This document shows, one piece after another, positions 1,611 through 63,548 of a stretch of DNA of 64,000 nucleotides. The notes below the pieces were generated by a model, which had not been told where the DNA came from, ran no database searches, and worked only from the letters and a program-made list of their open reading frames with translations. The stretch spans positions 76,198,001-76,262,000 of the forward strand of contig NC_086373.1 of NCBI RefSeq assembly GCF_036588685.1, written 5' to 3'. The position numbers and the translations under genes are program-made. The stretch's first letter is position 1. Each line of letters begins with the position of its first letter. This stretch comes from Mytilus trossulus. Its lineage: Eukaryota.

Positions 1611-2016
1611 ACATACATGTTATAATAAATGTGGCGAAGTTAATAATTTTGTGAGCGCTCAACCCTCCAATAACCTGGGACAGTAATGTATCAGCCCAAC
1701 AAAAGAACAAGCTGTTAAAATATGTTGCATCTGACTTAACTCAAAAGATCGGTAAAAAAACAACCAACATTAAAACAATAAACACAGAGCACCGATTTAA
1801 GCGTACTCTCAGTTTAAGGGAAACTGCCTTTACTTCCATGCATCTTTTGCAAATAACAAACTCGTCCTTTGAGGGATGCTAGACAGAAGCAATATAGTAC
1901 AACATCGTGTTGGATATCATGAACTAGAACAGCCATACTAGTAACATATACTTGGTTATAGGATTACTCACTTAGTTTTCCTTTTTATATTTCTAGGTAC
2001 TTCAGAAGTATTAAGC

Positions 2017-3222
2017 ATGTCTGAAAAACGCAGAATACTTGTGTGTGGCGGTGGAAATGGTGCTCATTGTTTGTCTGCTCTCGCAGCTTCCAGGGACAAT
2101 TTAGACGTGCATGTTCTGACATTATACCAAGACGAGGCAGAGAGATGGGCTAAACATGTTGAAAAAGAAAATATGAAGTTGACAATAACGAAGCAAGATG
2201 GAACTCAATATGATATATTTTCGAAACCTTCACTTATAACGAAAGATGCTGCTAAGGCCATGTCTGGTGTGGAGATTGTTTTTCTTGTCGTTCCAGCATT
2301 TGCTCATGCTCAGTATTTTACCGCCATTGCGCCACACTTACAGCCAAATACACTTATTGTTGGACTCCCTGGTCAAGCTGGATTTGAACTTCAATGCCGC
2401 CACATAATTGGTGACAAAGCCAGCAGTTGTACTATCGCAGCATCAGAATCTTTACCATTTGCATGCCGAATTGTTGAATTTGGGAGACATGCCAGAATAC
2501 TCGGACTGAAAGATTCTCTTGGAATGTCAGCTTTAAAGGGTAAAGCATGTCAGCTATCATTTCCTGTGGTAGAAACAATCCAAGGAATTCTTGGAGAGTA
2601 TCCTAAATTAGAGCTACTCAAGAACTATATAGCAATAAATCTGATGGCAGATGCTAATGTTCATCCTCCTATGATGTACGGAAGATGGGGAAACTGGGAC
2701 GGGAAACCATTGAAGGAGGAGCCCTTATTTTACCAAGGTGTCGATGATAGACAAGAAGATCTTCTAAACAGGGTCAGTGAAGAATTGCTCGCAGCTGCAA
2801 AGGCAATCGAACAGAAAAGAAAAGACGTTGACATGTCAGAGGTTATCCATTTGTTCGATTGGTTTAAAATCCATTACCCTGATCAGATAACTGACAAGAG
2901 TTCTCTAAAGATGGCCATGAGAACAAATAAAGCCTATGACGGTCTGGTACATCCAATGGTGAAAACTGATGAGGGATATGTTCCGAATTTCAATTATCGG
3001 TACACATCTGAAGACGTACCTTTCGGAATGGTAGTAATGAAAGGAATTGCCGATCTAGCTGGTGTACCTACTCCAGCCATGGATGAAATACTTGCATGGG
3101 GACAACAGAAACTAGGAAAAGAATATATTGTTGGTTCAAAACTTATAGGCAAAGATATAGGATTAGCAAGGGCACCACAATCATTCGGAATGACCAGTGT
3201 AGATGAACTTTTTGATATTTGA
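2017..3222 (+). CDS. Opine dehydrogenase (octopine/tauropine/alanopine dehydrogenase family), paralogue 1, 401 aa, single coding exon
   Basis: Rossmann motif VCGGGNGAH, then PGQAG (Q120), ESLPFACR (E144), VHPP (H216) and NYRYTSED (R328, D333). Spacing matches scallop octopine dehydrogenase Q118/E142/H212/R324/D329. Splice acceptor ttttatatttctAG at 1995-1996; AATAAA at 3259. Confidence 0.95.
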   Translation: MSEKRRILVCGGGNGAHCLSALAASRDNLDVHVLTLYQDEAERWAKHVEKENMKLTITKQDGTQYDIFSKPSLITKDAAKAMSGVEIVFLVVPAFAHAQYFTAIAPHLQPNTLIVGLPGQAGFELQCRHIIGDKASSCTIAASESLPFACRIVEFGRHARILGLKDSLGMSALKGKACQLSFPVVETIQGILGEYPKLELLKNYIAINLMADANVHPPMMYGRWGNWDGKPLKEEPLFYQGVDDRQEDLLNRVSEELLAAAKAIEQKRKDVDMSEVIHLFDWFKIHYPDQITDKSSLKMAMRTNKAYDGLVHPMVKTDEGYVPNFNYRYTSEDVPFGMVVMKGIADLAGVPTPAMDEILAWGQQKLGKEYIVGSKLIGKDIGLARAPQSFGMTSVDELFDI

Positions 3223-6145
3223 AGCGGGCTATTCTTTTTTTAATTTTAAAACAAGTATAATAAAACGTTCTAGATTAAGCTTAATTTATGTAAACGATGT
3301 TGTTTTTAAGTATATACTATATAAACAATGTAATGCATTTGTAGTATAACTGATTTTGGACATTACACTGAATGTTGATGTAAAGTTCCAAAATCGCACT
3401 GAATGTTATTGATAAAAAAAAACAATGATCTTTGTTTAATGTTCTGCATATTACTTTGGTGTGAGTTATTAGATAGCTGAATTATCTGACAATTTGTCTA
3501 ACGTACCGTCAATTTTTAGCTATTATTCTACATTATACAAAAAAGTTAGCACATCGTACCAAAAGTATTTTAACGTTTCAGTGACTCCTGGGGAGTACTC
3601 TGCGTAAGACAGTTGTAAATGGCAAGAAAATACTTATCAGTTACTGTAAATGACCTACAAATAAATCAGCATCACCAAAATCGTCGGTCGGCTTCAAGGA
3701 GTTATTTTCTATGAATCACGATTTTGGCTTCTCGTAGATATAGAGATAAACTGTAAAATGCCGTACTTCACTAAAATACTATCTGGTTGGGGCTTTTTTT
3801 CTTTTGGAAACACCATTTAAAATGATCGAAATGTTCAGATGACTTCTTTTACTAATTTTAGTGTTCTATCTTATTTCTTTAAAACGATAAAAAAAAATAC
3901 ACTGAAAGTTTGAACATCAAAAATGATTAGCAATTTAAGTTCTACAAAAAAGTCCAAAACGAATGACAGGTCAATCAAACACAAACAAACAAAAATATCT
4001 AGAGAGCAACCATGACTACTGTCTGTTTTAAAGTGTTAATATACATTTGACCAAGAAGCTAGGATTTTGTTTAAAGCCCCAAAATTAGGAAACAACTCTA
4101 TATACATATGTATTACGTGTAGTTAAATAGTATTTGCAGTTGATGTGTTTATGAAACATTTGCCACTGGACGTTAAACAACAAATCATCTTAAAACAAGC
4201 CTGATTCAAATTGTCATAAGTTTATTTATGAGAAAATGTAGTTCATCTTTTTAGACGGTTTATTGGAAAAGAAAATAATTGAGTATTGACTTTACATGAT
4301 AGAAAGTCGAGGTTTTAGAAACTAAGAAAAACAATACTTTGTCGATCAGTTTTTCCCGTGTCGTGTCAGGCTAGCTTCCAGTTATCTAATATTGGGATTA
4401 TCTATTATATACAGACATAACCCTAATAATTATCGGTAGTGACCACTGTCGCTAAAGAATGTCCTTTCATTGCAATGACCCACCCGTTTTGAGACCTGGG
4501 GTGTTTTTCTGTACCATTGTATCAAATAACAAAAATATTAACACTTGTATATGCAGGTACAATCAATATTAGCAAAAAGAGGATGCATGGTACGTCGCCA
4601 ACATATATAACATGACATTAATAGAGTAGCAATGCTGTTCAACCACACAATCGTGTAGCAATAATAAACTAAAACCTTTATATTGTTACTTAGTCAACCA
4701 ATGCACCAAAATAAGAGCACCCGCAGTTACTTGTAACTAGTTCAAAGCCTTTACATCTAATGAATAAATCGTTTTCTCTCAGGCTAAAATATCAGTTCGT
4801 ATACTAGTACATAAAACGGACAGTTTTGGCAAAAAAAAATTCGTTGAAACTCTCTACTGCATTTTCTGTTGGATTCTACATGGAATTTTCCTATTTTGTA
4901 TTTTAGCTGGAAAAAACTCACGGTGACCCTATCTTTTCTTTAGAAATTCTCAAAGCATTGTCTGAAAGCTATCTTCTCCTTAAGTATTTAACAATTCTAT
5001 CATTTTGTTTAGTTTCTAACCACAAAATGGTGTTTTTTTCCTGTATAATCCTTACAAAATGTCTCAAATTGTCGCTTCCTGAAGCTTGAGAAAATGCGCG
5101 GTGACCTATCATTTTCATTATTTATTTCAACATATATCAATAGATACTACATTTTGACAAAGTATGAACAAATTCTATCATTTTTATTTTAGACTCACAT
5201 ACCTTAAGGACGCTTAACTATGGCAACAGAATACGCATGCTCGAAAATCCTTTCTGTGATTGGACAAAATGCTGTCATGGTGGGTGATTTGGTTGTGTTT
5301 GAAAAAACGTCTCGAAAATTATATCGTGATGGAAAGCAAGTGAAAAACTATAAATATTTGAACTAGATCTTACAAAGATTTATATTTTTATTAAAATATG
5401 TTTTTCTCCAATAGCTCTTTGCATCCGTGAAAGCTGTTTATTCGGGACAATATAATTTTTAATGTAAACTTTGTTGTACGAACGTTTTTATACCTATAAG
5501 CTGTATTGCTTTTGGTTTGAAATAAACTATGTGACTTTTAGGACGCACCTACGCATGTGAGATTTCCATCGAGATTTCCGCGGGGTTTTGGTGAATGTAA
5601 ACAGAAAAATACTACTTATACTACCAATAGTTTCTAGCTTTGTTAACCATGAATTAAGTTTAATGTAATGAGTAGTAAATGTATATTTGTTTCTTGTTAT
5701 TTGCACTGGATATTTTGACAAATAATGTTTTTAGATGTCATCACAATATTCTTATATATTATTGCCTTAATATAACCAGACTTAGGAAAGAATTTCTTGT
5801 AGTTACATTCAGATGGAGATTTTATTAAAGAGGTGCTTCTGATGGTTATCGAAATGATAGTTTTAAACATAAACTCAAATTTAAATACGTCGGATATCTT
5901 TTTTAAAGATAGTTCTTGTTAAATTACTAAATACACTCAGTGAAAGACATGCATTATTGCGTCCTTGACGTCGTCATGGCTACTTTCAATGTCACTGAAT
6001 GTTCTCAGTATGTTGTCTCATCCCGAGAAAGGAATAGGTAATATTTTATTATTCGCTGAATCCCGTCATATCTTTTAACAAAAGCTTTGACTATCTAGGT
6101 AAGCTCAGCAATCGGTTATCTACAAAATTAGGGTGTATATATGGT

Positions 6146-7735
6146 ACTGTATTATTACGCCGTCAATCAATCTGTGCATGGTCAATATTAGTTGTAATCG
6201 GTTGATTTGCTTCATTGTAGCTGGATGTCTAAATGTACAATGATGGACTTTTCTTTGACTTCTGGCCAATGTGCAGTCATTGATCCTGAGTTTTTGTTCC
6301 ATTCAAAATACATTGAAATTAAAACAGGTCAACATTAAACGACAGAACGATTCCTTTTCCATGGCTTTGCCAGTTGCACCTATTTAAATCCTAGTATTTA
6401 TGATGAGTTTTTCTAATTATATGTTGTTTACAGTTTGGACTTAAATTGAGCTGTAACAGTATTTCCCAAGATTAAGAAGAGGGTTCGGCGCTTGCAATCG
6501 ATATGGTCTGCAAATTCGCAAACAAATAATATAATCAGGACACGCTTCCGCAGATTATCTATATGCATGTTTCAAGCCAGGAGCCTGTTTTTTCATGGTT
6601 TGTCGTGGGTTGCTTAAATATCGTACTTGTATTTGTTTTTAGCTCATTTTTATGCCCCACCTACGATAGTAGAGGGGCATTATGTTTTCTGGTCTGTGCG
6701 TCCGTTCGTCCGTCCGTGCGTCTGTCCCGCTCCAGGTTAAAGTTTTTGGTCAAGGTAGTTTTTGATGAAGTTGAGGTCCCATCGACTTCAAACTTTGTAC
6801 ACATGCTCCCTATGATATGATGTTTCTAATTTTAATGCCAAATTGAGTTTTTATCCCAATTTCAAGGTCCACTGAACATGGAAAATGATAGTGCGAGTGG
6901 GGCATTCGTGTACTGAGGACACATTCTTGTTTTGTATATAACTGTATTATTACGCCGTCAATCAATCTGTGCATGGTCAATATTAGTTGTAATCGGTTGA
7001 TTTGCTTCATTGTAGCTGGATGTCTAAATGTACAATGATGGACTTTTCTTTGACTTCTGGCCAATGTGCAGTCATTGATCCTGAGTTTTTGTTCCATTCA
7101 AAATACATTGAAATTAAAACAGGTCAACATTAAACGACAGAACGATTCCTTTTCCATGGCTTTGCCAGTTGCACCTATTTAAATCCTAGTATTTATGATG
7201 AGTTTTTCTAATTATATGTTGTTTACAGTTTGGACTTAAATTGAGCTGTAACAGTATTTCCCAAGATTAAGAAGAGGGTTCGGCGCTTGCAATCGATATG
7301 GTCTGCAAATTCGCAAACAAATAATATAATCAGGACACGCTTCCGCAGATTATCTATATGCATGTTTCAAGCCAGGAGCCTGTTTTTTCATGGTTTGTCG
7401 TGGGTTGCTTAAATATCGTACTTGTATTTGTTTTTAGCTCATTTTTATGCCCCACCTACGATAGTAGAGGGGCATTATGTTTTCTGGTCTGTGCGTCCGT
7501 TCGTCCGTCCGTGCGTCTGTCCCGCTCCAGGTTAAAGTTTTTGGTCAAGGTAGTTTTTGATGAAGTTGAGGTCCCATCGACTTCAAACTTTGTACACATG
7601 CTCCCTATGATATGATGTTTCTAATTTTAATGCCAAATTGAGTTTTTATCCCAATTTCAAGGTCCACTGAACATGGAAAATGATAGTGCGAGTGGGGCAT
7701 TCGTGTACTGAGGACACATTCTTGTTTTGTATATA
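6146..7735 (+). repeat. Perfect 795-bp tandem duplication (6146-6940 and 6941-7735)
   Basis: Identical text at offset 795; identical ORFs at 6563 and 7358. Confidence 0.95.
6647..6931 (+). mobile_element. Helentron-associated non-autonomous element (HINE/DINE-1 type), one internal unit; second copy at 7442-7726
   Basis: T-run, then ATGCCCCACCTAC..GTAGAGGGGCAT inverted repeat, (GTCC)n microsatellite, core unit, GGGGCAT subterminal repeat, short hairpin and T-rich end. Confidence 0.75.
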
Positions 7736-9416
7736 AATCGGGCTCTTGACTTTCTCGTTTGTATCGTTTGACAATTTGTCATGGCAGAACAATTTATAGC
7801 TTGCAATGCGATATTATATAATAGGTTTTCTCATAGTTAAAGCCGTACATTGACGTATAGTTGCATCAAGTATTTCATTGGGTCTCTGTTATATAATTGT
7901 CTCATTGTCAATACTATCTTTTTATTTGTATATTAGAAATCACTTGTGTCAGTACTCAAAATGTGTATATCTTGTATGTGCATAAGGCCTTTCGTTTTAT
8001 TTTACCATCGATTTAAACTAAGATAAAAGATTGAGTCAATATATACCAAACAAGTGATATAAAGACATAATCAAAATATGTAAACCGAATATTCAAGGAA
8101 GTCCAACATAAAAAAAAGCGATCTTAGGATGGATTTTTCTCTTCATTTTCTAGTGGTATTTATGTTATTTATTTTAAATGGAAGTTCCCGAACCAAACAA
8201 ATTCCATAATATAAACGGGTAGAATCCAGATCGACGCACCAACACCTTGAGTCAGGCAGTGGTAACAAGCAAAATTAATTTAGTGTTAATGTTTAACATT
8301 TAGAAAAAAAGGAAATAAGTAAGTTGTTGAAGAAGGTTAAACAATCACCCGGATGTATATAGGATTGACTTGCTCTTCAAACTTGCGCAATATTGACAGG
8401 CGATAATATCACCCAATAAGTAGAGTAAGTATTTGATGCATATTTTGTGATTAATGTCATTCATAATTTATTAATTTTAACACAGTTTATAGTCAGTAAA
8501 GAATAATGTAATTTTATACTTTTTATAATATTCATTGTTAAGTACAATTGCATGTATAGCTAGCTTATTCAATATTTTAGTTTCATACTGGGGATCGAAC
8601 AATTAAATGCGAATCAAAAATTCCCTTCTATATGATTGTCTGTCGGTGTCTCTTTCCTTCAGCGGTGTTTATTTTGTTTGTATTTTTGTAGCATGGCATT
8701 GTCCGTTATTAATTTGCCACTGGACGTTAAGCAAATAACAATTAATCAATCAATCAGTTATCGTATTGATCGCTAGAAATGAGAACCGACTTATCTTCAC
8801 TTATCCTGTTATTGAAATTGTAACTGTGTATAGAAACTGAAATGTAAATTTACAGTTCTAGGAGGGTATATAAATGATTTAACATATGAATGTGGTAATA
8901 TTGTATACGTGTTGGCCGGGAAGTATTTGTATCTTTTCTGTTTTGCCCCGACATATTTTTAGATTTTTAATTAACATAACAAATAGAATTTAATAATGTT
9001 TTAAAAAAAAAGCGAAAACATGAAGCAAGGGATTGTAATCCTATTTCGATAAATGTGTACATTTACAAAAATATGTCGGGATTTTTTACTAACCAGACGG
9101 AAATGTTCTAAAATTACGGAAATTGTGAACTATTTTAGTTCCTTGAAAAACAATATGTATGTTCATTACTGATAACACATTGATTTATTGTAATCCAACT
9201 TTCAATTGAGGAAAATTGTTGGTTAACACCGAAAAGCCATTCTTGATTGATTAGAGTATTGTTTTACTTACACTATTCTTTTGTATGTAGTACACTAGTA
9301 GAAGGAATAAAGAAGTAAGAATCCGCATTTAAAATCTATAATTTTAATACAATTATCGAAAGGCTTCAAACGAGTATGTGTATCAGTCTGTTGCAAATCG
9401 ACTGTAGAAAATAAAT

Positions 9417-9622
9417 AGGGCTCTTCACGGTTAGTTCGCCCATGAATAGAGGCAGATTTTCATAATGGAGGTAAAAATAGTGTGAAAAATACGGGAAAAC
9501 ATCATTAAATTAGAGCAGTTGTTTGGAAACACACATCAGATTTCCCATTCTTCACTGTTTCCACCTCTTTCTAAAAAATCTGCACCTTATCCGATATGGC
9601 CGAACTAACCGTGAAGATCCCT
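9417..9622. mobile_element. MITE with ~27-bp TIR
   Basis: agggctcttcacggttagttcg-cccat pairs with atgg-ccgaactaaccgtgaagatccct. Confidence 0.7.
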
Positions 9623-9879
9623 GTTACATCGGAAGATAACTGTAATGAATTATAAACAATAGAAAGTTATTTCCCTTGGCATGAGATTGGTAGAGCTCTC
9701 TATAGAATTTATATTTCACTCAGTAAAGGTCTGTATTTTAGTGATTTTTTTGTGAAAATAATAAATATTTTTCAAAATACTTTTACTATCTTATATAAGA
9801 TATAACATAATAATATGAAGGCGTTTAACTAAAAAAAAGTCAAAAAATTTGCACGATTCTCAAATATATTGGTACTTTA

Positions 9880-10150
9880 GGTGGTAACCAACACCTTAAC
9901 TTAAATTAATTTGGCTCGTTTAATTTTCATAAATTTTGACAAAGTACTTATATTGACCCTTTGACAAAAATATAAAAATTTCAAAAAATTTGAAACAACC
10001 ATTTAATCAGAAAAATACACTGGTTATATAGCAGTTTGACAAACAATACTTTTATTATTGAGAAGCTTAATATTCTCTTAACAACACAACGTAATTAAAA
10101 CGTTTAGCTGACTTTTAAAGAGTTATATCCCTGTATTGTTAGGTACCACC
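9880..10150. mobile_element. TTAA-targeting MITE (Kolobok-like)
   Basis: ttta|ggtggtaaccaac ... gttaggtaccacc|ttaa. Confidence 0.55.
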
Positions 10151-10165
10151 TTAACTTAAAATAAT

Positions 10166-11412
10166 TGTAAGGGTTCCGCGGAAGCCTACTTTTGCTATTA
10201 ATTGCAGGCTCAACGAAAATGCGATACAGCAATCAATAAAACTATTCCTCTTGATACTATCATTTGATAGTAAGAGGCTTCTTTCCATGGTTGGTAAAAA
10301 TCCAAGACGGTTTATGAATCTAATAAATGTTTTAAGTGCTTTAACTGCAGACTGTATGTTATGTTAACTGAAAGAAAAAACTAAGTCCATTTATAACCAA
10401 AATACAGATACACAGGGACAAAATTTTAACAAACATTTCATTCTAGTGAACGCTCTTTGCACGTTAAGAACCCTTGCAACAAATCTTTTGAGGGGTCCGT
10501 AGGTGGCCTGTTGCAAGGCAAAATTTCTGTCCCTATCCAAAATGCCCTCATTTTCCAGTGGCAGTCCAAATTTCCCCGACCATCATCCCAGATGACCTAT
10601 ATCGTATCAACCTACCTATTGTATTTATTGTGAACTTGTTCTCGTCCTGAATATGCATGAAATATTTGCCACTGGACGCTAAACAACCATCAATCAATCA
10701 ATCAACCTTCTAGATGCTATAGCTTTTGGTCATTATTAAACTTCTGTCCAAGTTTGGTACAAATCCAAAATAGTATAAGAAAGTTATCAAGATTTAAAAA
10801 ACTTAAAGCACAGAGTGAATGTGATGTTTCCAAGCAGAAAATCTAAGTTCATTTAAAAGTAAAATACGGAACAAATGGATTTATTATTATTACAAAGTTT
10901 ACATCTGTATACTATCTTATGACCATAAACCAACTTCTGTTCAAGTTTGACTCAAATCCAAAATAGTACAAGAAAGTTATTAAAACTTTTAAAACTTTAA
11001 CCACAGAGTGAATTTGTTGTTTCCTGGCATAAATATAAGTCCACTAAAAGTAAAATACGGTAAAAATGGGTTTATTTTTTTACAAAATTTACTTCTGGAT
11101 ACTATCTTATGATCATAAACAAGCTTCTGTCCTTTTGTACAAACCCAGAATAGCTTAAGAAAGTTATTGAAATTTTAAAAACTTTAACCACGGAGTGAAG
11201 CTAATGTTTCCCGGAAGAAAAACTTTTTTAGTCCATTTATAAGTAAAATACGGAAAAATTGGAATTTCATTTTACATTATTTACTTCTGGATAGCATTTT
11301 ATGATCATAAACAAGCTTCTGTCCAAGTTTGGGTAGAAATCCAGGGTAATTAAAGATAGTTATCAAAATTTCAAAAACCTTTACTACAGAGTGAGTATTT
11401 GTGTGCGCCGCA
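10166..11412 (-). mobile_element. HINE-type element with ~190-bp tandem array; family member at 50701-51365
   Basis: Shared end tgtaagggttccgcggaa; cttctgtccaagtttgg-like unit at about 10741, 10933, 11124 and 11316; interrupted by a SINE. Confidence 0.7.
10447..10706 (+). mobile_element. 5'-truncated SINE with (AATC)n tail
   Basis: gcacgttaagaaccc core; 3' atttgccactggacg..(aatc)n, also at 4158 and 8712; flanked by ttctag direct repeats. Confidence 0.65.
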
Positions 11413-12538
11413 AAAATAGTGTTTCGATTTTGATGATTGACATGTTTTATTTGTGCAATAAGTAGAAGTATTATATGTTTACGGTGAAAATTACAGAGCC
11501 TTTGGTCTAATCTTAATCTTTAAAAAAATCTTTAAATTAAATTCAATCAGTATGATGATATTCTCTTATTTTCACCTTCTATTTTCAATACTCTGTGATC
11601 CAGGTGTTTTTACCTTCAATTATCAACATAGCAAACTGTTCTGTGATATTATCCTTGCCAAGACTACATGCAAGTTATATATGTTTAACTTCTTTTGTAT
11701 ACATATATAAATATTTAGTTTGAAGAAAAAAAAACTGTTTATATGTTTTGCACCCAATTCATACAATTCATTTGCAAATTACGACTTAACATTTTAACAG
11801 CAAAATGAAATGTAAATAATTATCTTCTCTGTCAGTTTAAGATTGATAATAAATATACTGAATTGTTCGCCAATCTAAGTCGTAAGTAATTTTGTGAAAT
11901 CGACTCCTGAATTGCTAAATCTATCTTAGTTGAGAGAGAGTCCTGAAACTCGTTTTTATTACCCTTGGATATATTCGTTTAACAGTGGTGAAAAGTCGCC
12001 AATCATGTAGAACAACAAATATCTGAAGGGCAAAACATAAGTTTAACTATATACTGGTATCTTAATATAATATAGCTCTTAATCGTCCTGGTATCTTTTA
12101 TATGTCTATAGCTCTTAATCGTCCTCTGTTTATTGTTAACGCTAATGAATAAAGCAGAAACTATCAAAGGATACCATCAACATCCAGTTCTCTAAATCGC
12201 AAAATAAGAACGGATTTTTCGATTGACATAAAACCTTTCTAAAATTTTGATAATGAAAAATAAGGATGAAAATTAAATGCTTATGTGTTATACTATATTG
12301 TTTTATAATGCAAAAATATATATATAAATATTGACGTAAAAAAATAATGGCAAATACATAAAATGGTATTAATACATCGCAATAACATTTGCTATTGTGA
12401 TTAGTGCTCGCTTGGTTTATATTTAGGGGTTCTTAAAGATTTTGACCGTTCACGAGACAAAGGCCTTCTTATTCATTACATATATGCGAAACCGATATTT
12501 TCTGTGTTAAAGTTTGAAATAGTTATCAAAGGTACCAG

Positions 12539-13415
12539 GGGCCGTGTCAATGAAAGTATCCTAGGATATGTCCTAAGATAGGTCTTAGGACATTATTTAG
12601 GATGGTCTTAGGACGTGTCTGAGACATGTCTTAGGATGTCTTAGGACTGTCCTAACTACGATGGTCCTAGGACCATCCTAACACATTTATTTAATTGAAA
12701 ATATATGTAAAGATTTGTATGACAAAGATTGAATTGTATTTTAGAACCTATATGTAAAGAGAGGGAGGATGATTGACTCTAATATAGAAAACAACTAACG
12801 CAAAATAAAAGTTAAAGTTTTTACGGAATACTAATAAATACGTTATTAAATATGATAAAAGATATAAATGAATTTAATACGAAAACAAAAGTAAATGTTT
12901 ACAAAACTTTGTGATATTCGTGCTGCAATTTTAGTACATAAACTAGTTTTGTCCTTAGGTCCACTCGATTTCATTACATATACCGAATCAAGATTAGGTA
13001 AAAAAAAGAAGTAAACTTTTCCCCATATTTGAATTATTTAAAATATGTTGCTTATGATGATAGTATTGTTCAGGCTCCAAAAAAAGGCAGCACGAAATAA
13101 TTTAATATAATACAATTAAATATTTAACAAACATTTAACATTTTTACTTATTAATTTTATCTTATGATGGTTTAATATTGTATTAGTATTTTTAGTATTG
13201 GGTTTATGCCATATTTATTGTTTTTATTACGTTTTAGGACGATGTAACCTTTAGGACTATCCTAAGACACCTATTTGTATATCCTAATTTTAGGACCAAA
13301 TTTAGGACATATCTTATTTTAGGAGACGTTCGTTAACCCGATTTAGGACTAAGACGTGTCCTAAGACCATCCTAAGACATGTCTTAGTCCTAGGACAGCT
13401 TCGTTGACACGGCCC
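12539..13415. mobile_element. PIF/Harbinger-like non-autonomous DNA transposon, 877 bp
   Basis: TIR GGGCCGTGTCAAyGAA, 3-bp CAG target duplication (12536-12538 and 13416-13418), and multiple subterminal TAGGA/TCCTAAG motifs at both ends. Confidence 0.85.
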
Positions 13416-14617
13416 CAGGATTATAATTTAGTACGCCAGACGCGCGTTTCGTCTACATGCAGAGATTGAAGGCCGTACTTTAACCTATAATGGTTTAATT
13501 TTTAAATTGTTATTTGGATGGAGAGTTGTCTCATTGGCACTCACACCACATCTTCCTAAATCTATTTAACACTGCACTCTGTTATAGGTAACAAATAAGA
13601 AAATGAAGCCAACCTGAAAATATCAAATTCAAATTTAGAAAATGTTTTTCAGGGGAATGATGGGATTTTCTTCCTGTACAAGACATTATTGCTGTATTTT
13701 GTGAAAGTTTCAATCAAAACATGAATCTTAAGATTTTAAAACACGTTTATCTTAGGTAAAAAGTTTGTCCTTCAACGTTTGATATTATATTTTTTGTAAT
13801 TTCATATATATTTAAAATACGTTCAGTTTTACAGTTTTACCATTAGCATACTGTTATGTAATCGAAATGCCATCGGTCTTATATACCCTTCTTCGTATTG
13901 TATAAATTGATTTTGATATTTGAAAAGTCAAAATTAATTATGATTACAAATTTTGGACAGACATGTGCATAATACGTTTTAAGAAACTAAGTTGTTATCC
14001 AATTATATTAATCTTAAAGAATATAACGACAAAACACATCGAAAGGGAAACATCTATGATAAGTTGTTCGGTTTTAATTCATAAGAGTGAAATATTTTTA
14101 CTGATATACTCCGTAAGTATAGTAACTCTTATTAAGAATCCGGTTTACCAACATATGATATAAAAGTTTTTTTTATAAGTGTTTTACCGAATATGATAAA
14201 ATAAAATGTTATAGTCTATTAATTTATTACCATTTGATTGCTTCTAAGATGGAAAGAACTCAACCACGTTTATGATTTTGGTGCCGTGAGAGTTGGAACC
14301 GTCCTTCTAGCTGCAATCATAATTGTATTGTTTCACTGTAGATGGAATATAAAAGCTTTTGAAACTTTTGTCACGCGCCTTGTTTGTTTAGATAAGATCG
14401 TATAATTGTAATCTACGAAATCAACAATTATGATTTTGTCTAAACTGACTTTAGAATCTTATGATAAGTATACGACAGGTGAAGACAAACGCCAAAGTTG
14501 ACAGGCAATTTTGCATGCTTCTTTTGACCGGATCAGTCTACAGGAATACCAAAATTGTTCCATTCCTATTAGATAACATTATAATTGTAAAATTGTATTT
14601 TATTACAGGTCATAAAC

Positions 14618-15832
14618 ATGTCTTCTGACACAACAAAACGACGAATACTTGTCTGTGGGGGAGGAAATGGTGCCCATTGTCTATCCACGTTAGCTGCCTC
14701 ACAGAACAATTCCGAGGTACACGTTCTGACATTATTTCAAGACGAGGCTGAGCGTTGGACAACACTATGTACGGATTCCGATGTAAAATTGACCATAATC
14801 AATCTTGATGGAAGCCAACGAGAGATATTTGCAAAGCCCACCCTGGTAACGAAAGATCCAGAAAAAGCAATGTCTGGTGTTCAGATCATTTTCCTTGTCG
14901 TTCCAGCTTTCGCTCATGAACAATATTTTAAGGCCATAGAACCACATCTCCAACCGAATACACTGATTGTTGGGCTTCCTGGACAGGCAGGATTTGAATT
15001 TCAGTGTAGAAGTATATTAAGCGACAAAGCGAACAAGTGTACTATAGCATCATTAGAATCATTGCCCTGGGCGTGTCGTATATTAGAATTCGGTAAACAC
15101 GCTCAGATTCTTGGAGCAAAAGATTCTCTGGGTATATCATACATTAAGGGAAAGTCGTGTAAATTACCTTTTCCAATAGTCGAGTCCATTCAGGATATTC
15201 TTGGTACAAAACCTGAAATTGAAGAAATACAGAACTACATTGCAATCAACTTGATGGCAAAATCTATGGTCCATCCTCCAATTCTTTACGGAAAATGGAG
15301 AGACTGGGATGAAAAGCCTTTACAGGAAGAACCTTTATTTTATCAAGGAATAGATGAAAGACAAGCAGACCTGTTATCTAAAGTCAGTGACGAACTGATA
15401 GCTACTGGGAAAAAGTTGGAGCAAGTCAAAGAGGGTATAGACATGTCACAAGTTATGCATATATATGATTGGTACAAAACCTACTATAAAGATCAAATAA
15501 CTGACAAAAGTTGTCTTATGAAGGCCATGAAAACGAACAGTGCGTATGACGGACTTGTTCATCCAATGATCAAAACTGAAAACGGCTACGTACCAAATTT
15601 CAATTACCGATACACAACCGAGGATATTCCATTTGGCCTTGTTGTAATGAAGGGCATTGCTGAAATCGCCGGAGTAGATACTCCAGTCATGGATGAAATC
15701 ATTTTATGGGCACAACAAAAACTAAACAAAGAGTACATCGTGGGGTCGAAGCTTTCGGGAAAAGATGTTGGTACCGCAAGAGCACCTCAGTCATTCGGTC
15801 TAAAAACTGTCGATGAACTTTTTGATACTTAA
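14618..15832 (+). CDS. Opine dehydrogenase paralogue 2 (possibly tauropine dehydrogenase-like), 404 aa, single coding exon
   Basis: Colinear with 2017..3222: VCGGGNGAH, PGQAG, ESLPWACR, MAKSMVHPP (H219), NYRYTTED (R331, D336). Acceptor tattttattacAG at 14607-14608. Confidence 0.95.
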   Translation: MSSDTTKRRILVCGGGNGAHCLSTLAASQNNSEVHVLTLFQDEAERWTTLCTDSDVKLTIINLDGSQREIFAKPTLVTKDPEKAMSGVQIIFLVVPAFAHEQYFKAIEPHLQPNTLIVGLPGQAGFEFQCRSILSDKANKCTIASLESLPWACRILEFGKHAQILGAKDSLGISYIKGKSCKLPFPIVESIQDILGTKPEIEEIQNYIAINLMAKSMVHPPILYGKWRDWDEKPLQEEPLFYQGIDERQADLLSKVSDELIATGKKLEQVKEGIDMSQVMHIYDWYKTYYKDQITDKSCLMKAMKTNSAYDGLVHPMIKTENGYVPNFNYRYTTEDIPFGLVVMKGIAEIAGVDTPVMDEIILWAQQKLNKEYIVGSKLSGKDVGTARAPQSFGLKTVDELFDT

Positions 15833-18597: not shown

Positions 18598-20523
18598 ATG
18601 GAGAGAGAAATATCGCCTATCAACTGTATCGAGCATCCAAAATTGCTCTTAAGTTATTATTGTTCTGATCACGATACAGTATTTTGTGAAAATTGTAAAA
18701 CTGAAATACATGGATCTTGTGCTGAAGTTCACACTGTTAAGAATGCATCCAAGTCAATAAGTGATGGCGACATTGTAAAGGCTCTCGTGTCCCGCATAAC
18801 AGAGGTAAAGAAAACCCTTTCAGGTACAACCGACAAACTAGAAGATAACATTGCTACTTTAAGCCAACAATATGACAGCATCAAGCAAAATATTTTCACT
18901 GCGAGGCAATCTATCAATCAGTATTTTGATTCTCTGGAGACAGAATTGACTAACCTTGTACGTGAACGCTGCATTAAAGACATAGAAGAGAAAATAGTAG
19001 AACTGGAGAGAAGAAATTATACTTTAGACCAATGGGAAGACGATCTAGAGTTAGCCATGCACAGTGACGATGAAGAAATGCTTTTTACCGTAGTGAAGAT
19101 CTTAAGTAAATTACAGAATGATATGGAATCATATTCAAATGACATTCTAGAAGAAATAAAGATAACGCATGTAAGGTGGACACCAATAAGAACAGACAGG
19201 ACTTCAATAGTGTCCTTTGTTGGCAAAGTGTCTTTGACTGAAATATCATCAAAAATTCAGAACACAAGTTCTTGTAAATCTACGAAAGCCTTGACACCCG
19301 ACTCAAGTCAGATTTCGCAAAGCAACATTGGTGCCGTTGATATTGCACAGGAATCTAAATCAGAGCAAGGTCTAGAGAAGGTTTCAATAAAAACAAAACA
19401 AGGTTGGGATCAGATTTCTAGTAAAGTTAAGGACGAGGAAGTTGAAGTTACCGGTGTTAATGCGGGCTTAAATCGGGCGTGTTCAAAAAACAACATGAAA
19501 TCAACTAAAACATCGACGGTTGTCGATTTAGAAGATGAACACTCAAAAGAAGTCAACGAGTCTAATGGCACAAGTAACCAAACGGAAATACAAGAGGATG
19601 AGAAAATAGATCAAGACAACAATAGTGAGAAAACACAACCAATCGAGAATTTACTGAACCAACAGGACGTCGATACTGTACCTAATAGTGCAAGAAAAAT
19701 GACAAGTACAAGAGGGTCTAGTAGAAGTAAAGCAGAAACAATTATTTATAGTGCAAAGTCTAAATTTGAAGCAACTAACTTAGGACGAAAAAATAGCACA
19801 GAAGTGCAGCGAGGATTATTTTTGACAGATGAAGGCATGTTATTCATGGATAAGACTAACAAACACATTTTCATATGCAATAAAGAAGGGCAAATGCTGC
19901 ATAAAATTAGTCTCAAATATGAACCCCAGGATGTGACAATGTTGGACGAGGGTCGAGCAGTGGCAACTATAGGAAACAATGGAATTCAAATAGTCAACAT
20001 ACACAGCTTACGAAAAGAAAAAGCTCACGATGTCGGGGGATTCTGTGGAGGGATAACTTCATATAAAGGTCAAATAATTGTAAGTGTTGATAAGAAATTA
20101 CGTTTGCTCGACGCTTTTGGATATACACTGCGTCGTTTGCAACATGATGGGAGCGCCTCGTTTGTCTGCTCAGATGATGCGGGTAAAATATATTATACCG
20201 ACTCAATGGATCATGCCGTTCATTGCATAGCATGGTTTGGAATACCAGTCTTTACTTACAGCAACAAAGGCTTAAAGTGTCCAATGGGTATCGTTGTCGA
20301 TTCTGATTGGTTCGTATACGTGGCTGGCTTTGAATCGTGTAACGTACAAAAGCTATCACCCAATGGACGATATCATTCTGATTTTTTGACTGAAAAGGAT
20401 GAATTGCATGAACCGTCTTCTCTTGCTTACAACGAGAAAGAAAATGAAATTTTAGTTATAAGTGATAATAATCAAACAGTAGAATTGTATGATCTGAATG
20501 ATGGCATCCGACATCAACAGTAG
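18598..20523 (+). CDS. TRIM-like protein without RING: B-box, coiled coil, low-complexity linker, NHL-like beta-propeller, 641 aa
   Basis: B-box2 pattern CIEH..YCSDHDTVFCENC..IHGSC, heptad-rich helix (about aa 60-200), S/T/E/K-rich linker, and C-terminal NHL-like repeats (PQDVTM, GKIYYTD, CPMGIVVDSDWFVYVAG, EPSSLAYN). Acceptor AG at 18580-18581, followed by an in-frame TAA before the ATG. Confidence 0.85.
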   Translation: MEREISPINCIEHPKLLLSYYCSDHDTVFCENCKTEIHGSCAEVHTVKNASKSISDGDIVKALVSRITEVKKTLSGTTDKLEDNIATLSQQYDSIKQNIFTARQSINQYFDSLETELTNLVRERCIKDIEEKIVELERRNYTLDQWEDDLELAMHSDDEEMLFTVVKILSKLQNDMESYSNDILEEIKITHVRWTPIRTDRTSIVSFVGKVSLTEISSKIQNTSSCKSTKALTPDSSQISQSNIGAVDIAQESKSEQGLEKVSIKTKQGWDQISSKVKDEEVEVTGVNAGLNRACSKNNMKSTKTSTVVDLEDEHSKEVNESNGTSNQTEIQEDEKIDQDNNSEKTQPIENLLNQQDVDTVPNSARKMTSTRGSSRSKAETIIYSAKSKFEATNLGRKNSTEVQRGLFLTDEGMLFMDKTNKHIFICNKEGQMLHKISLKYEPQDVTMLDEGRAVATIGNNGIQIVNIHSLRKEKAHDVGGFCGGITSYKGQIIVSVDKKLRLLDAFGYTLRRLQHDGSASFVCSDDAGKIYYTDSMDHAVHCIAWFGIPVFTYSNKGLKCPMGIVVDSDWFVYVAGFESCNVQKLSPNGRYHSDFLTEKDELHEPSSLAYNEKENEILVISDNNQTVELYDLNDGIRHQQ

Positions 20524-22350: not shown

Positions 22351-22982
22351 TTTTTATGCCCCACCTACGATAACAGAGGGGCATTATGTTTTCTGGTCTA
22401 GTCTGTGGCTCCGTTCGTTCGTCCGTCCGTTCGTTCGTTCGTCCGCAGGTTAAAGTTTTTAGTCAAGGTAGTTTTTGATGAAGCCGAAGTACAATCAATT
22501 TGAAACTTAGTACACTTGTTGCTTATGATATGATCTTTCTAATTTTAAAGCCATATTAGACTTTTGACCCCAATTTCACGGTCAACTGAACATAGAAAAT
22601 GAAAGTGAGAGTTTCAGGTTAAAGTTTTTGGTCAAGGTAGTTTTTGATGAAGCTGAAGTCCAATCAACTTGAAACTTAGTACACTAGATGCTTTTGATAT
22701 AACCTTTCTAATTTTAAAGCCAAATCGGACTTTTGACCTCAATATCACGGTCCACTGAACATAGAAAATGAAAGTGGGAGTTTCAGGTTAAAGTTTTTAG
22801 TCAAGGTAGTTTTTGATGAAGCTGAAGTCCAATAAACTTGAAACTTAGTACACTTGATGCTTATGATATGACCTTTTAAATTTTAAAGCCGAATTAGACT
22901 TTTGACCCATTTAAACGGTCCATGAAACATGGAAAATGAAAGTGCCAGTGGGGCATCCATGTATTTTGGACACATTCTTGTT
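22351..22982 (+). mobile_element. Same HINE-type family with three ~169-bp internal tandem units
   Basis: Same ends as 6647-6931; caggttaaagttttt at 22446, 22615 and 22784. Confidence 0.8.
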
Positions 22983-30471: not shown

Positions 30472-30949
30472 AACAAGTGAAACTGCGAGCTACTGCTCAC
30501 TGATGATACCTCCGCCGCAAGTGGATAATATTAATAGTGTAAAAATATGCAAGTGTTCGGAAAACAGGAAGTTGTCGAGTGATGAATCTGAAAACACATC
30601 ACACAGTATAGCTGACTTATATAAATCCTGAAACCAAATTTCAGAAATCCTTGTATTGTAGTTCCTGAGAAAAATGTGACAAAAATTTTCAACTTGGTTA
30701 TCATGTGTAAAATCATACAAGTGTTCGGTAAACAGGAAGTTGTCAAGTGATCAATCTGAAAACACATCACACTGTATAGCTGACTTAGAAAAACCCTGAA
30801 ACCAAATTTCAGAAATCCTTGTATTGTAGTTCCTGAGAAAAATGGGACAAAAAATATTCATGGGACGGACGGACTGACTGACGGACTGACGGAAGGACAG
30901 TCAGAGGTAAAACAGTATACCCCCCCTTTTTTAAAGCGGGGGTATAATT
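30472..30949 (-). mobile_element. HINE-type element with two ~168-bp internal units
   Basis: tataccccccttttttaaagcgggggtata hairpin at about 30917-30947, (GACG/GACT)n microsatellite, caagtgttcgg at 30550 and 30718. Confidence 0.7.
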
Positions 30950-31006: not shown

Positions 31007-32215
31007 TCAGTTCCATGTCAATTTCTGAGTATTTTTACATTCATGTAAAGCTTGGAGAGTTTTATCAAAGACTTCCCTCTGTCTATTGTAATCAACCCTG
31101 TGAAAAACCAGCAGGTACATGTAGTTACACATAGACCATCCACTGGAGGACAACTGGAATCTAGCACTAATTGTTGGTGGAATGTTCACTTCTTGAGCTA
31201 AAATTCCCATGTAAGCATCCTCGTTTGGAATGATTTTAATGTACTGACTAATGTTAACAACTTTTTTTACAACATCAGCAGAGAGTAAATAGCCTACACC
31301 ACTGACGTAAGGAGGATATGTGTCCTCCTCATATTCTTCTCTTAGCACGTGCCACCTACTGTCTTGATCACGTATAACTCTACGCTGTTTGGGGTCTGAC
31401 TGGACGTGACCCATGTATAAACTGTTGGCATCTTGATGATGTATTATGATATTATATAAGTTATGAGTATGAACAAAACAATCATCGTCAGTTTTTAATA
31501 TGAATTTGGCTGGGCAATACCTGCTTGCCCAGTGGAATCCTTGCATCACTTTTAGCGATAAGTTTCTGTAAGAGTCTGTATAGCTGCCTGATATTATATC
31601 CCTGAAAGACTTGAATTCCTCTTGTAAACTGTCCTGTAAGTCACTAGACTCGACTTTACCTATAAGAAACAAACATTGCCACGCATTCTCGGAATGTTTG
31701 TACAAAACTGGATTACACCAAGTCTCTCTTATAATTTGTCTATTCTGTATATTTTTGGGTGCAGACACTATAAGAATTAAAAATTCTATACCACTTTTGC
31801 ATATATTTCCAGGAGTATTTCCTAAAATCTCTGAAACATTCCATTTCAGACTATAATAATGATTCTCCATTGCAGCAAATTTTGATGATCCACCAAATTT
31901 TGGAATCAATTTAATTCTGCTTTTGTGAGAGCTGTGGTATGGAACTGTAGGTGGGAAATACTTCAATAAAAAGGTATAAAGCACTATAAAACCAATGGTT
32001 ATAGCAAGGACAGAAGTGATACTAGCTTTTAGTATAACCTTTGGTGATGTCCTATGCCTTCGCATTACTGACTGAACTTGAAGTGAGACAATATATTTAG
32101 TATCAACAGGAGATTCTGTCTGATGAGACGATTCGTCAGGTGTTGTTATTTGGCACTTCAGAGGATTTGCCTCATGCTGAAGATGGTGCATGGTGGGGAC
32201 TTTAGGTGTCCCCAT
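31007..32215 (-). CDS. Beta-1,3-galactosyltransferase / GT31-family type II membrane glycosyltransferase, 402 aa
   Basis: TM helix ITSVLAITIGFIVLYTFLL; GT31 motifs LILIVSAP..NRQIIRETW, DSYRNLSLK, KTDDDCFV (DxD), YPPYVSGVGY, EDAYMG. Acceptor ttttgtctttcAG at 32298-32299 on the minus strand. Confidence 0.93.
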   Translation of the reverse strand: MGTPKVPTMHHLQHEANPLKCQITTPDESSHQTESPVDTKYIVSLQVQSVMRRHRTSPKVILKASITSVLAITIGFIVLYTFLLKYFPPTVPYHSSHKSRIKLIPKFGGSSKFAAMENHYYSLKWNVSEILGNTPGNICKSGIEFLILIVSAPKNIQNRQIIRETWCNPVLYKHSENAWQCLFLIGKVESSDLQDSLQEEFKSFRDIISGSYTDSYRNLSLKVMQGFHWASRYCPAKFILKTDDDCFVHTHNLYNIIIHHQDANSLYMGHVQSDPKQRRVIRDQDSRWHVLREEYEEDTYPPYVSGVGYLLSADVVKKVVNISQYIKIIPNEDAYMGILAQEVNIPPTISARFQLSSSGWSMCNYMYLLVFHRVDYNRQREVFDKTLQALHECKNTQKLTWN

Positions 32216-38887: not shown

Positions 38888-40235
38888 TTTTTTAGCTCAC
38901 CTGGCCCAAAGGGCCAAGTGAGCTTTTCTCATCACTTGGCGTCCGGCGTCCGTCGTCCGTCGTCCGTCGTCTGTCGTCTGTCGTCCGTCGTCCGTCGTCC
39001 GTCGTCGTCCGGCGTTAGCTTTTACAAAAATCTTCTCCTCTGAAACTACTGGGCCAAATCAAACCAAACTTGGCCACAATCATCATTGGGGTATCTAGTT
39101 TAAAAAATGTGTGGCGTGACCCGGTCATCCAACCAAGATGGCCGCCACGGCTAAAAATAGAACATAGGGGTAAAATGCAGTTTTTGGCTTATAACTCAAA
39201 AACCAAAGCATTTAGAGGAAATCTGACATGGGGTAAAAATGTTTATCAGGTCAAGATCTATCTGCCCTGAAATTTTCAGATGAATCTGTTAACCTGTTGT
39301 TGGGTTGCTGCCCCTGAATTGGTAATTTTGAGGAAATTTTGCTGTTTTTGGTTATTATCTTGAATATTATTATAGATAGAGATAAACTGTAAACAGTAAT
39401 AATGTTCAGCAAAGTTAGATTTACAAATAAGTCAACATGACCGAAATGGTCAGTTTACCCCTTTAGGAGTTATTGCCCTTTATAGTCAATTTTTAACCAT
39501 TTTTCATAAATCTAAGTAATCTTTTACAAAAATCTTCTCCTCTGAAACTACTGAGCCAAATTAATCCAAACTTGGCCACAATCATCTTTGGGGTATCTAG
39601 TTTAAAAAATGTGTGGCGTGACCCGGTCAACCAACCAAGATGGCCGCCACGGCTAAAAATAGAACATAGGGGTAAAATGCAGTTTTTGGCTTATAACTCA
39701 AAAACCAAAGCATTTTGAGGAAATTTGACATGGGATAAAAATGTTTATCAGGTCAATATCTATCTGCCCTGAAATTTTCAGATGAATTGGACAATCGGTT
39801 GTTGGCTTGCTGCCCTCCAATTGTTAATTTTTAAAGAAATTTTGCCGTTTTTGGTTATTATCTTGAATACTATTATAGATAGAGATAAACTGTAAACAGC
39901 AATAATGTTCAGCAAAGTAAGATCTACAAATTAGTCAATATGACCTAAATGGTCAATTGACCCCTTAAGGAGTTATTGCCCTTTATAGTCAATTTTTAAC
40001 AATTTTCATTAATTCGGTAAATTTATGTAAATTTTTACCAAATATTTTTCTCTGTTACTAATGGGCAAGGTTCATTATAGATATAATTGTAAGAAGCAAG
40101 AACGTTCAGTAAAGTAAGAACTTCAAACAAATCACCATCACCAAAATACAATTTTGTCATGAATCCATTTGTGTCCTTTGTTTAATATGCACATAGACCA
40201 AGGTGAGCGACACAGGCTCTTTAGAGCCTCTAGTT
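38888..40235 (+). mobile_element. HINE-type element with (CGTC)n microsatellite and two ~502-bp internal repeats
   Basis: 5' tttttagctcacctggcccaaagggccaagtgagc; 3' aggtgagc..aggctctttagagcctctagttt; repeat unit starts at 39024 and 39526. Confidence 0.8.
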
Positions 40236-63101: not shown

Positions 63102-63548
63102 GTAGTTATTAGTTATGTTCTCTTGTATTAATTAAAACAAGTACATAATGTAACAACTTTGAACAAACCTTTTTCACTGCAGCATGATGCACCTTTAAAT
63201 CCTCTTAACTGATATACTGTATACCAGGTTATTTTTGCAGATTTGTAAAATTTCACTAATTTCATTGAATAAGGTATACAAAATATTTTGGCAGTTACTA
63301 TTTTGGCGGATTTATCAATAAATTTGCATGTGCACTATTGAATTGGCAGAATTTATTATGGCGATTTTGTATTATCCTGGAATATTTGCACCCCATGAAA
63401 ATAACCCTCTGTACTGTATTTCTTGCGATATGACCATGGTTTATGACTGAAGAACACATTATACTAAATAATTTTTGTTCAAACGTGAAGTTCACTTCCA
63501 TAAAATTTATGATTATAATGATTATCAAAGGAAAAATATTCGAACCTA

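What the first reader, a model, noticed from the sequence alone, without database searches (positions are those of the whole stretch)
2017..15832. Tandem opine dehydrogenases with opposite charge in the amino-acid-substrate loop
Seen: two intact, colinear paralogues 11 kb apart keep every catalytic residue but differ in the loop before the catalytic His: LMADANVH (Asp212) versus LMAKSMVH (Lys215). They also differ at ESLPF/ESLPW and DWFKIHY/DWYKTYY. Known: in scallop octopine dehydrogenase the 206-208 segment before His212, together with Glu142, contacts the amino-acid substrate; His-anchored numbering puts this Asp/Lys at position 208. Inference: copy 1 prefers a cationic substrate (Arg/Lys, octopine-type) and copy 2 an anionic or small one (taurine, beta-alanine). 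That would be a locally duplicated two-enzyme anaerobic end-product module whose specificity turns on a charge swap, possibly with octopine activity re-evolved from a tauropine-type ancestor.
Basis: partly seen in the sequence, partly recalled or inferred. Interest (0 to 1): 0.75.

Follow-up and report, generated by a model that had tools for sequence, protein, structure and literature searches.

The report
Mussel octopine enzyme re-evolved by Lys-to-Asp
Two neighbouring mussel genes encode intact fermentation enzymes, one matching the deposited octopine (arginine-using) dehydrogenase and one likely using small amino acids, and the lysine-to-aspartate difference in their substrate pocket recurs in several mollusc lineages, so it likely marks repeated re-invention of arginine use, though no assay has tested this.

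Summary
Both opine dehydrogenase ORFs are intact (2017-3222, 14618-15832; 70% identical), and Asp212/Lys215 align to scallop Tyr208. Copy 1 is 98% identical to the deposited Mytilus galloprovincialis D-octopine dehydrogenase, so its identity is not new. Copy 2 is probably not anion-specific: Lys208 is the usual molluscan state (49 of 77 rows), shared by named alanopine, beta-alanopine and tauropine enzymes, so a strombine/alanopine type is likelier. The array probably has three genes. What looks new: on trees built without the loop, Asp208 appears at least four times from Lys208 in bivalves, and again in cephalopod octopine dehydrogenases (one clade rejected, p=2e-44). Copy 1 is not the orthologue of scallop octopine dehydrogenase (p=5e-7); the mussel orthologue found has lost His212 and Arg324. 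Likely mechanism (inferred): Lys208 plugs the arginine sub-pocket beside conserved Glu142, and Asp opens it and adds a counter-charge. The same position helps switch specificity in a bacterial homologue. Against: scallop uses Tyr208, reportedly through its backbone; only two Asp lineages carry enzyme names; nothing was assayed; key papers were unreadable here.

The parts
2017..3222 (+). Copy 1: opine dehydrogenase, 401 aa, single coding exon; orthologue of M. galloprovincialis D-octopine dehydrogenase AFP55364 (Asp208 type)
   Evidence: (98.0% identity, 8 differences)
1981..1996 (+). Pyrimidine tract and AG splice acceptor in front of copy 1 (exon begins at 1997)
   Evidence: sequence; contig X2/record 10 aligns from 1995 with 70 unaligned letters before it (RNA status of the run is a guess)
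2446..2448 (+). Glu144 = scallop Glu142, guanidinium ligand; also kept in copy 2 (Glu147, 15056-15058)
   Evidence: PMC2924402 passage
2650..2652 (+). Asp212 codon GAT = scallop position 208 = Arthrobacter Asn198 (His-4); candidate specificity switch
2662..2664 (+). Catalytic His216 = scallop His212
2872..2874 (+). His286 = scallop Tyr282; His or Asn in 4 of 6 Asp208 lineages, Tyr in copy 2 (Tyr289, 15482-15484)
14056..14112 (+). Upstream exon of copy 2 in the database model XP_063401005 isoform X1; donor GTAAGT at 14113, intron 14113-14608
   Evidence: tblastn of P0138; sequence; contig X3/record 21 stops matching at 14609 with 24 letters left over
14618..15832 (+). Copy 2: opine dehydrogenase, 404 aa, catalytic part in one exon; Lys208 type, likely strombine/alanopine-like
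   Evidence: model pLDDT 96.3 and TM 0.92 to 3IQD
15260..15262 (+). Lys215 codon AAA = scallop position 208; two base changes from GAT

Best explanation
These are two intact members of a probably three-gene mussel array of opine dehydrogenases, in which copy 1 is likely the mussel octopine dehydrogenase (arginine + pyruvate), copy 2 likely uses small amino acids (glycine or alanine), and the Lys-to-Asp change at position 208 is likely the main step by which arginine use re-evolved. Shown: both fold or align like scallop OcDH with all catalytic residues; copy 1 is the orthologue of the deposited D-octopine dehydrogenase; it descends from Lys208 genes rather than from the scallop Tyr208 lineage; Asp208 is polyphyletic. 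Inferred mechanism: NADH binds first, then the amino acid binds by its carboxylate to His212 at the helix-kink-helix, the domains close, and pyruvate is condensed and reduced (scallop mechanism, PMC2924402, PMC6033044). In Lys208 enzymes the lysine side chain would fill the sub-pocket used by the arginine side chain, probably pairing with the conserved Glu142, leaving room only for short substrates. Asp208 would remove this plug and add a second carboxylate, helped by smaller neighbours at 209, 210 and 282. Inferred history: the mussel orthologue of the older scallop-type enzyme lost its catalytic residues and a duplicate from the Lys208 array took over octopine formation; the order of the two events is unknown.
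For: Copy 1 shares a 90% cluster with AFP55364 'D-octopine dehydrogenase' and is 98.0% identical to it. His-4 residue in the 15 database-named enzymes retrieved: octopine 4 Asp, 3 Tyr, 0 Lys (n=7); others 5 Lys, 3 Asn, 0 Asp (n=8) (about seven independent lineages). Tree of 104 rows with the 208-216 loop and 282-290 helix removed: the copy 1 and copy 2 clades are sisters (100/99) inside Lys208 mytilid clades, and the same under a mixture model on 44 rows. Six Lys/Asp changes on the tree. AU tests reject all Asp rows as one clade (p=2e-44), copy 1 with P0008 (p=2.4e-4), copy 1 with the Pinctada pair (p=1.6e-5), and copy 1 inside the scallop clade (p=5e-7). Control: Lys-to-Asp at this site ranks 2 of 197 derived residues needing two base changes, and first among the 12 charge reversals listed. 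In Arthrobacter opine dehydrogenase, Asn198 (His-4) with Ala111 (aligned to Gln120 of copy 1) switches substrate preference when both are mutated (PMC10787698 section 28). The mytilid rows of the scallop clade lack His212, Arg324 and mostly Glu142. M. edulis makes both strombine and octopine (PMC12202636 passage).
Against: No activity was measured, and the paper identifying the Mytilus enzyme could not be read, so the link between AFP55364 and an assay rests on its database name. Scallop OcDH is arginine-specific with Tyr208, and the agmatine-complex legend gives Tyr208 as a backbone contact, so Asp is not required and its side chain may not face the guanidinium. Only 2 of the 5-6 Asp lineages carry an enzyme name. 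One neutral-looking site (G367N) changes more often, 8 times. Two of three homologue searches used Asp-bearing queries, which favours finding Asp rows. Dreissena plus P0090 as one clade is not rejected (p=0.175). In cephalopods the direction is unresolved, and Asp could come from the outgroup Asn in one step. Co-change with position 282 is 4 of 5 pairs, p=0.125, not significant. In the bacterial enzyme a single change at 111 gave no gain of activity; two changes were needed. Absence of an intact scallop-type gene in Mytilus is inferred from one capped search, not from a genome.
Confidence: 0.6

Rival explanations
1. Copy 1 is octopine-type and copy 2 small-substrate-type, but specificity is spread over several pocket sites (208-210, the 278-290 helix, 118, 146, 163); Asp208 is a helpful marker, not a switch.
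For: Limpet tauropine and beta-alanopine enzymes differ around 277-291 with an identical loop. Positions 209 and 210 also leave the Lys-type state in 6 of 6 Asp lineage consensuses. The bacterial switch needed two sites. Scallop reaches arginine specificity with Tyr.
Against: Asp is the only residue shared by all six lineages, and its neighbours change to different residues. It needs two base changes each time and is the most repeated charge reversal.
Confidence: 0.25
2. One reading: copy 2 is a tauropine or beta-alanopine dehydrogenase whose Lys pairs with a distal sulfonate or carboxylate.
For: Named limpet tauropine and beta-alanopine enzymes and the Haliotis rows have Lys208. Opine dehydrogenases are described as promiscuous (PMC7669893 passage).
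Against: Three named alanopine enzymes also have Lys208, and annelid tauropine dehydrogenase has Asn. Copy 2's 282-290 helix (WYKTYY) resembles bivalve Lys rows, including oyster alanopine dehydrogenase (WYLNYY), not the limpet or abalone ones. The passages read on Mytilus report strombine and octopine.
Confidence: 0.1
3. The two copies are broad-specificity isoenzymes that differ mainly in tissue or timing, and the Asp/Lys recurrence is tolerated drift.
For: Published statements that specificity cannot be predicted from sequence. One other site shows as much two-step recurrence.
Against: No named octopine enzyme has Lys and no named non-octopine enzyme has Asp. All catalytic positions are conserved and dN is far below dS.
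Confidence: 0.05

Closest known systems
Mytilus galloprovincialis D-octopine dehydrogenase (AFP55364 / M1FK93)
   Same: Copy 1 is its orthologue: 98.0% identical, same loop, same 90% cluster.
   Different: Eight substitutions, none in the loop. Its genomic setting and origin from a Lys208 array were not found described in the searches run.
Pecten maximus octopine dehydrogenase (3C7A/3C7C/3IQD, PF02317)
   Same: Same fold (TM 0.92 for the copy 2 model) and the same catalytic and guanidinium-binding residues.
   Different: About 47% identical, Tyr at 208, and a separate paralogous clade; copy 1 inside it is rejected. The Mytilus member of that clade lacks His212 and Arg324.
Cephalopod octopine dehydrogenases (Sepia, Loligo, Doryteuthis)
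   Same: Asp at His-4; one Sepia pharaonis row even has the same ADANVH loop.
   Different: About 52% identical and not one clade with copy 1; Asn at 282, Pro at 163.
Molluscan Lys208 enzymes: Crassostrea gigas alanopine dehydrogenases 1 and 2, Fusitriton alanopine, Cellana tauropine and beta-alanopine dehydrogenases
   Same: Copy 2 shares Lys208 and belongs to the same large lineage; 60% identical to oyster AlaDH1.
   Different: Copy 2 is a mytilid-specific duplicate with no assayed orthologue found.
Arthrobacter CENDH/ArODH (1BG6) and metagenomic mODHs (PMC10787698)
   Same: Positions 111 and 198, which switch amino-acid preference there, map to Gln120 and Asp212 of copy 1 (198 by His-anchoring, the local alignment is gapped).
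   Different: About 21% identical; there the charge sits at 111 and 198 makes room, whereas here the charge itself is at 198/208.

Membership tests
NAD-dependent opine dehydrogenase (PF02317, octopine DH fold) | Pfam Octopine_DH domain above the curated cut-off | tested here: met
   105.6 and 112.8 bits against a cut-off of 30
NAD-dependent opine dehydrogenase (PF02317, octopine DH fold) | Two-domain fold with Rossmann GxGxxG/A motif | tested here: met
   CGGGNGA in both; copy 2 model pLDDT 96.3, TM 0.92 to 3IQD. Copy 1 by sequence only; its model failed
NAD-dependent opine dehydrogenase (PF02317, octopine DH fold) | His-Asp dyad and Arg324 sensor | tested here: met
   H216/R328/D333 and H219/R331/D336
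Octopine dehydrogenase EC 1.5.1.11 (copy 1) | Reductive condensation of L-arginine with pyruvate | not testable with these tools
   Supported only by orthology to a database-named enzyme; source paper not held
Octopine dehydrogenase EC 1.5.1.11 (copy 1) | Guanidinium ligands Glu142 and Trp278 | tested here: met
   E144 and W282, but also kept in copy 2 and most non-octopine enzymes, so not diagnostic
Scallop-type (Tyr208) OcDH orthologue group | Monophyly with Pecten OcDH | tested here: not met
   AU p=5.4e-7
Scallop-type (Tyr208) OcDH orthologue group | xMSYSFVH-type loop | tested here: not met
   LMADANVH and LMAKSMVH
Tauropine / beta-alanopine dehydrogenase (copy 2) | Preference for taurine or beta-alanine | not testable with these tools
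   No assay possible
Tauropine / beta-alanopine dehydrogenase (copy 2) | Grouping with, or diagnostic residues of, named tauropine enzymes | tested here: not met
   Copy 2 groups with bivalve rows, not with Cellana, Haliotis or Arabella; Lys208 is not diagnostic
Alanopine / strombine dehydrogenase (copy 2) | Preference for alanine or glycine | not testable with these tools
   No assay possible
Alanopine / strombine dehydrogenase (copy 2) | Lys208/Tyr282 pocket and bivalve clade shared with oyster alanopine dehydrogenases | tested here: inconclusive
   Shared, but this is the default bivalve state and no direct orthologue is named

The most novel reading that the evidence does not exclude
Octopine dehydrogenase has been re-invented at least five times in molluscs through the same charged pocket position (Lys to Asp at His-4 in four or more bivalve lineages, Asp also in cephalopods). 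In mussels it replaced the ancestral scallop-type enzyme, which survives as a conserved catalytically dead protein. One residue would then predict arginine use across the lineage, and one or two swaps would interconvert the two genes in this window.
Probability: 0.35. Interest if true: 0.68.

Novelty: new variant of a known kind. Interest (0 to 1): 0.45.

Why it matters
Papers read here state that opine dehydrogenase specificity cannot be predicted from sequence (PMC7669893) and that its molecular basis was unexplained until a bacterial double mutant (PMC10787698). This locus offers a natural pair, 70% identical, with opposite charge at the position implicated there, so the question is directly testable with a handful of mutants. 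If right, it gives a sequence rule for annotating anaerobic end-product pathways in molluscs, a clear case of repeated two-step convergence with replacement of an older enzyme by a paralogue, and a lever for engineering reductive-amination catalysts. The enzymes themselves and the tandem duplication are ordinary.

Tried and rejected
No whole genome is held, so the third array member and the absence of an intact Tyr208 gene were not checked directly. A model of copy 1 from a 2-row alignment failed (pLDDT 34). The good model of copy 2 gives no coordinates, so the Lys215-Glu147 distance was not measured. A metagenome scan for related loci gave two distant loci and no synteny. No RNA holder was listed on record; contig depths were not used to rank expression. 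Net-charge comparison of copy 1 orthologues against the Odh allozyme difference between M. trossulus and M. edulis (PMC3873017 passages) was uninformative: both -6. ESLPF/W was rejected as a determinant because Phe also occurs in Lys208 rows such as oyster AlaDH2. DWF/DWY was rejected because it is polymorphic among orthologues. Glu142 was rejected as the discriminator because nearly all rows keep it. Co-change of 208 with 282 is not significant. The profile-free search of 50% representatives gave mainly distant outgroups. Earlier scan findings: none. No complex was predicted; no binding claim is made. Rows dropped: 210 to 144 by an 85% identity filter, 144 to 104 for run time (near-duplicates and long degenerate rows), and 7 of 77 rows with loop indels before counting changes.
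Full report
OBSERVATION. The window is AT-rich animal DNA. Two long + strand ORFs, 2017-3222 (401 aa, P0001) and 14618-15832 (404 aa, P0002), are open and colinear, 70% identical, with dN 0.21 and saturated dS. Both carry Pfam Octopine_DH and match scallop octopine dehydrogenase (OcDH, 3C7A) over their length. Asp212 and Lys215 align without a gap to scallop Tyr208, four residues before the catalytic His. A model of copy 2 from a 119-row alignment has pLDDT 96.3 and TM 0.92 to 3IQD. Each gene has a splice acceptor just before its ATG. Contigs from runs guessed to be RNA stop matching at those points and carry extra letters (X2 record 10, 70 letters before 1995; X3 record 21, 24 letters beyond 14609), which fits spliced leaders. 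For copy 2 a database model places the upstream exon at 14056-14112.

IDENTITY. Copy 1 shares a 90% cluster with M. edulis, M. californianus and M. galloprovincialis proteins, among them AFP55364 'D-octopine dehydrogenase', 98.0% identical. Copy 2 is identical over its length to M. trossulus XP_063401005, which points to that species. Consecutive accessions (M. edulis CAG2256034/35/36, M. galloprovincialis VDI32687/88, M. coruscus CAC5404180/81) suggest a third, Lys208 paralogue beside the pair; it is not in the window. A tandem single-exon duplicate is also reported in a scallop (PMC11084901 passage), so the duplication itself is ordinary.

WHAT THE RESIDUE TRACKS. Among the 15 enzymes retrieved with a specific database name, octopine dehydrogenases have Asp (4: Mytilus, Sepia, Loligo, Doryteuthis) or Tyr (3 scallops). 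The others have Lys (5: two oyster and one Fusitriton alanopine, Cellana tauropine and beta-alanopine) or Asn (3 annelid enzymes, including Arabella tauropine dehydrogenase). These are labels, not assays I saw, and they represent about seven lineages. Lys is the common state of the lineage that holds both copies (49 of 77 rows). It therefore does not mark an anionic substrate. The two Cellana enzymes share the loop and differ at 20 sites, 10 of them in 277-291, so fine choice among small substrates probably lies in that helix. With strombine and octopine reported from M. edulis (PMC12202636 and PMC7669893 passages), copy 2 is most likely strombine/alanopine-like; which Lys paralogue does which is unknown.

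EVOLUTION. I built trees after deleting the 208-216 loop and 282-290 helix columns. With 104 rows (LG+G4) there are two old molluscan lineages: a Tyr208 clade (scallops, Solemya, Potamilus and others; 100/99) and a 77-row clade (100/99) with gastropods, cephalopods and most bivalve genes. The copy 1 and copy 2 clades are sisters (100/99), nested in Lys208 mytilid clades; a mixture model on 44 rows agrees. Asp rows need six changes: cephalopods, the Pinctada pair, the copy 1 clade, P0008, Dreissena and P0090. All Asp rows as one clade is rejected (p=2e-44), as are copy 1 with P0008 (p=2.4e-4) and with Pinctada (p=1.6e-5); Dreissena with P0090 is not rejected (p=0.175). The subsets were chosen after seeing the tree, and other pairs were not tested. 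The conservative count is four bivalve origins from Lys plus cephalopods, where the direction is open (outgroups have Asn). Lys to Asp needs two base changes. As a control, among 197 such two-step derived residues at 178 conserved columns, this one ranks second (6 changes; G367N has 8) and first among charge reversals. Two of three searches used Asp-bearing queries, which biases the sample. Position 282 changes from Tyr to His or Asn in 4 of 6 Asp lineages, not significant (4 of 5 pairs, p=0.125).

REPLACEMENT. Copy 1 inside the scallop clade is rejected (p=5e-7). A search from a Tyr208 query returned, as the best Mytilus-named hit, a cluster present in five Mytilus species that falls in the scallop clade but has Arg for His212, Ala for Arg324, Asn for Glu142 and an altered glycine loop; two unnamed relatives are similarly degenerate. 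No intact Tyr208 Mytilus protein appeared, but only 8000 candidates were scored, 9 unnamed intact Tyr208 clusters were not looked up by name, and no genome is held. Replacement of the older enzyme by a Lys208-derived paralogue is therefore likely, not shown.

MECHANISM. In scallop OcDH the arginine carboxylate binds His212 and the guanidinium binds Glu142 and Trp278 side chains, with backbone contacts from Met206, Ser207 and, in one legend, Tyr208 (PMC2924402 passages and part 1 of 5; PMC6033044 passages). Glu142 and Trp278 are kept in both copies, so something else must exclude arginine from non-octopine enzymes. In Arthrobacter ODH, Asn198 lies opposite Ala111, and changing both switches Phe to Asp preference, while changing 111 alone only kills activity (PMC10787698 passages and section 28). 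Those sites map to Asp212 (His-4) and Gln120 of copy 1. I infer that Lys208 acts as an internal plug, probably paired with Glu142, and that Asp208 opens the sub-pocket and adds a counter-charge. Side-chain geometry was not measured. The scallop backbone contact and its Tyr show that other solutions exist. My odds: copy 1 octopine-type about 0.85; copy 2 small-substrate type about 0.7; position 208 necessary for the difference about 0.6; sufficient alone about 0.25.

NOVELTY. Known: the enzymes, the Mytilus octopine dehydrogenase sequence, and that opine dehydrogenases do not cluster by substrate (PMC11084901 passages and supplement table rows). Not found in nine text searches of the held library: the recurrent Lys-to-Asp change, the non-orthology of mussel and scallop enzymes, or the degenerate mussel orthologue. 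The two most relevant papers were not read: Vazquez-Dorado 2011 (seen only as a reference; not held) and Smits 2008 (seen only as a reference; I recall, unverified, that it discusses residues near 208 as a size ruler). Part of this may be in print there. PMC11036304 (passages) and PMC3873017 (passages) added nothing decisive. Verdict: real, partly known, with a testable and possibly unreported convergent specificity switch; interest 0.45.

Noticed in passing
P0554, P0560, P0551 (Mytilus clusters), P0488, P0489; not in the window: A conserved mytilid member of the scallop octopine dehydrogenase clade lacking His212, Arg324 and an intact glycine loop: a likely pseudoenzyme kept across species (71-81% identity among P0554, P0488, P0489).
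   Followed up: partly
P0477 (labelled Lineus longissimus, 29 Mb contig): A ribbon-worm-labelled protein nests with scallop OcDH (100/99) at 75-78% identity, closer than most other bivalve members (58-73%): possible gene transfer, contamination or slow evolution.
   Followed up: partly
window 6146-6941 and 6941-7736: Exact 796-base tandem duplication (100% identity) between the two genes; recent duplication or assembly artefact.
   Followed up: no
window 18598-20523 (+): 641-aa ORF with a weak B-box hit and coiled-coil/propeller-like parts by eye; the M. edulis model CAG2256036 fuses copy 2 to it, probably a gene-model error.
   Followed up: partly
window 31007-32215 (-): Galactosyltransferase-family ORF (PF01762).
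   Followed up: no
window 57653-59048 (-): Two adjacent ORFs that look by eye like fragments of a LINE-type reverse transcriptase; the one scanned had no Pfam hit.
   Followed up: no
P0495, P0494 (sea-anemone clade rows), P0045: Asp near His-4 together with a one-residue loop deletion; possibly further independent origins, left out of the counts.
   Followed up: no
P0043, P0083, P0091, P0098, P0110/P0217 (mytilid Gly208 clade): A further mussel clade has Gly at 208, mostly with His at 282: an open pocket that might also admit large substrates.
   Followed up: no
window 39019-40013, 22446-22944, 63534-63893, 30537-30860: Other local tandem repeats of 150-500 bases at 89-98% identity.
   Followed up: no
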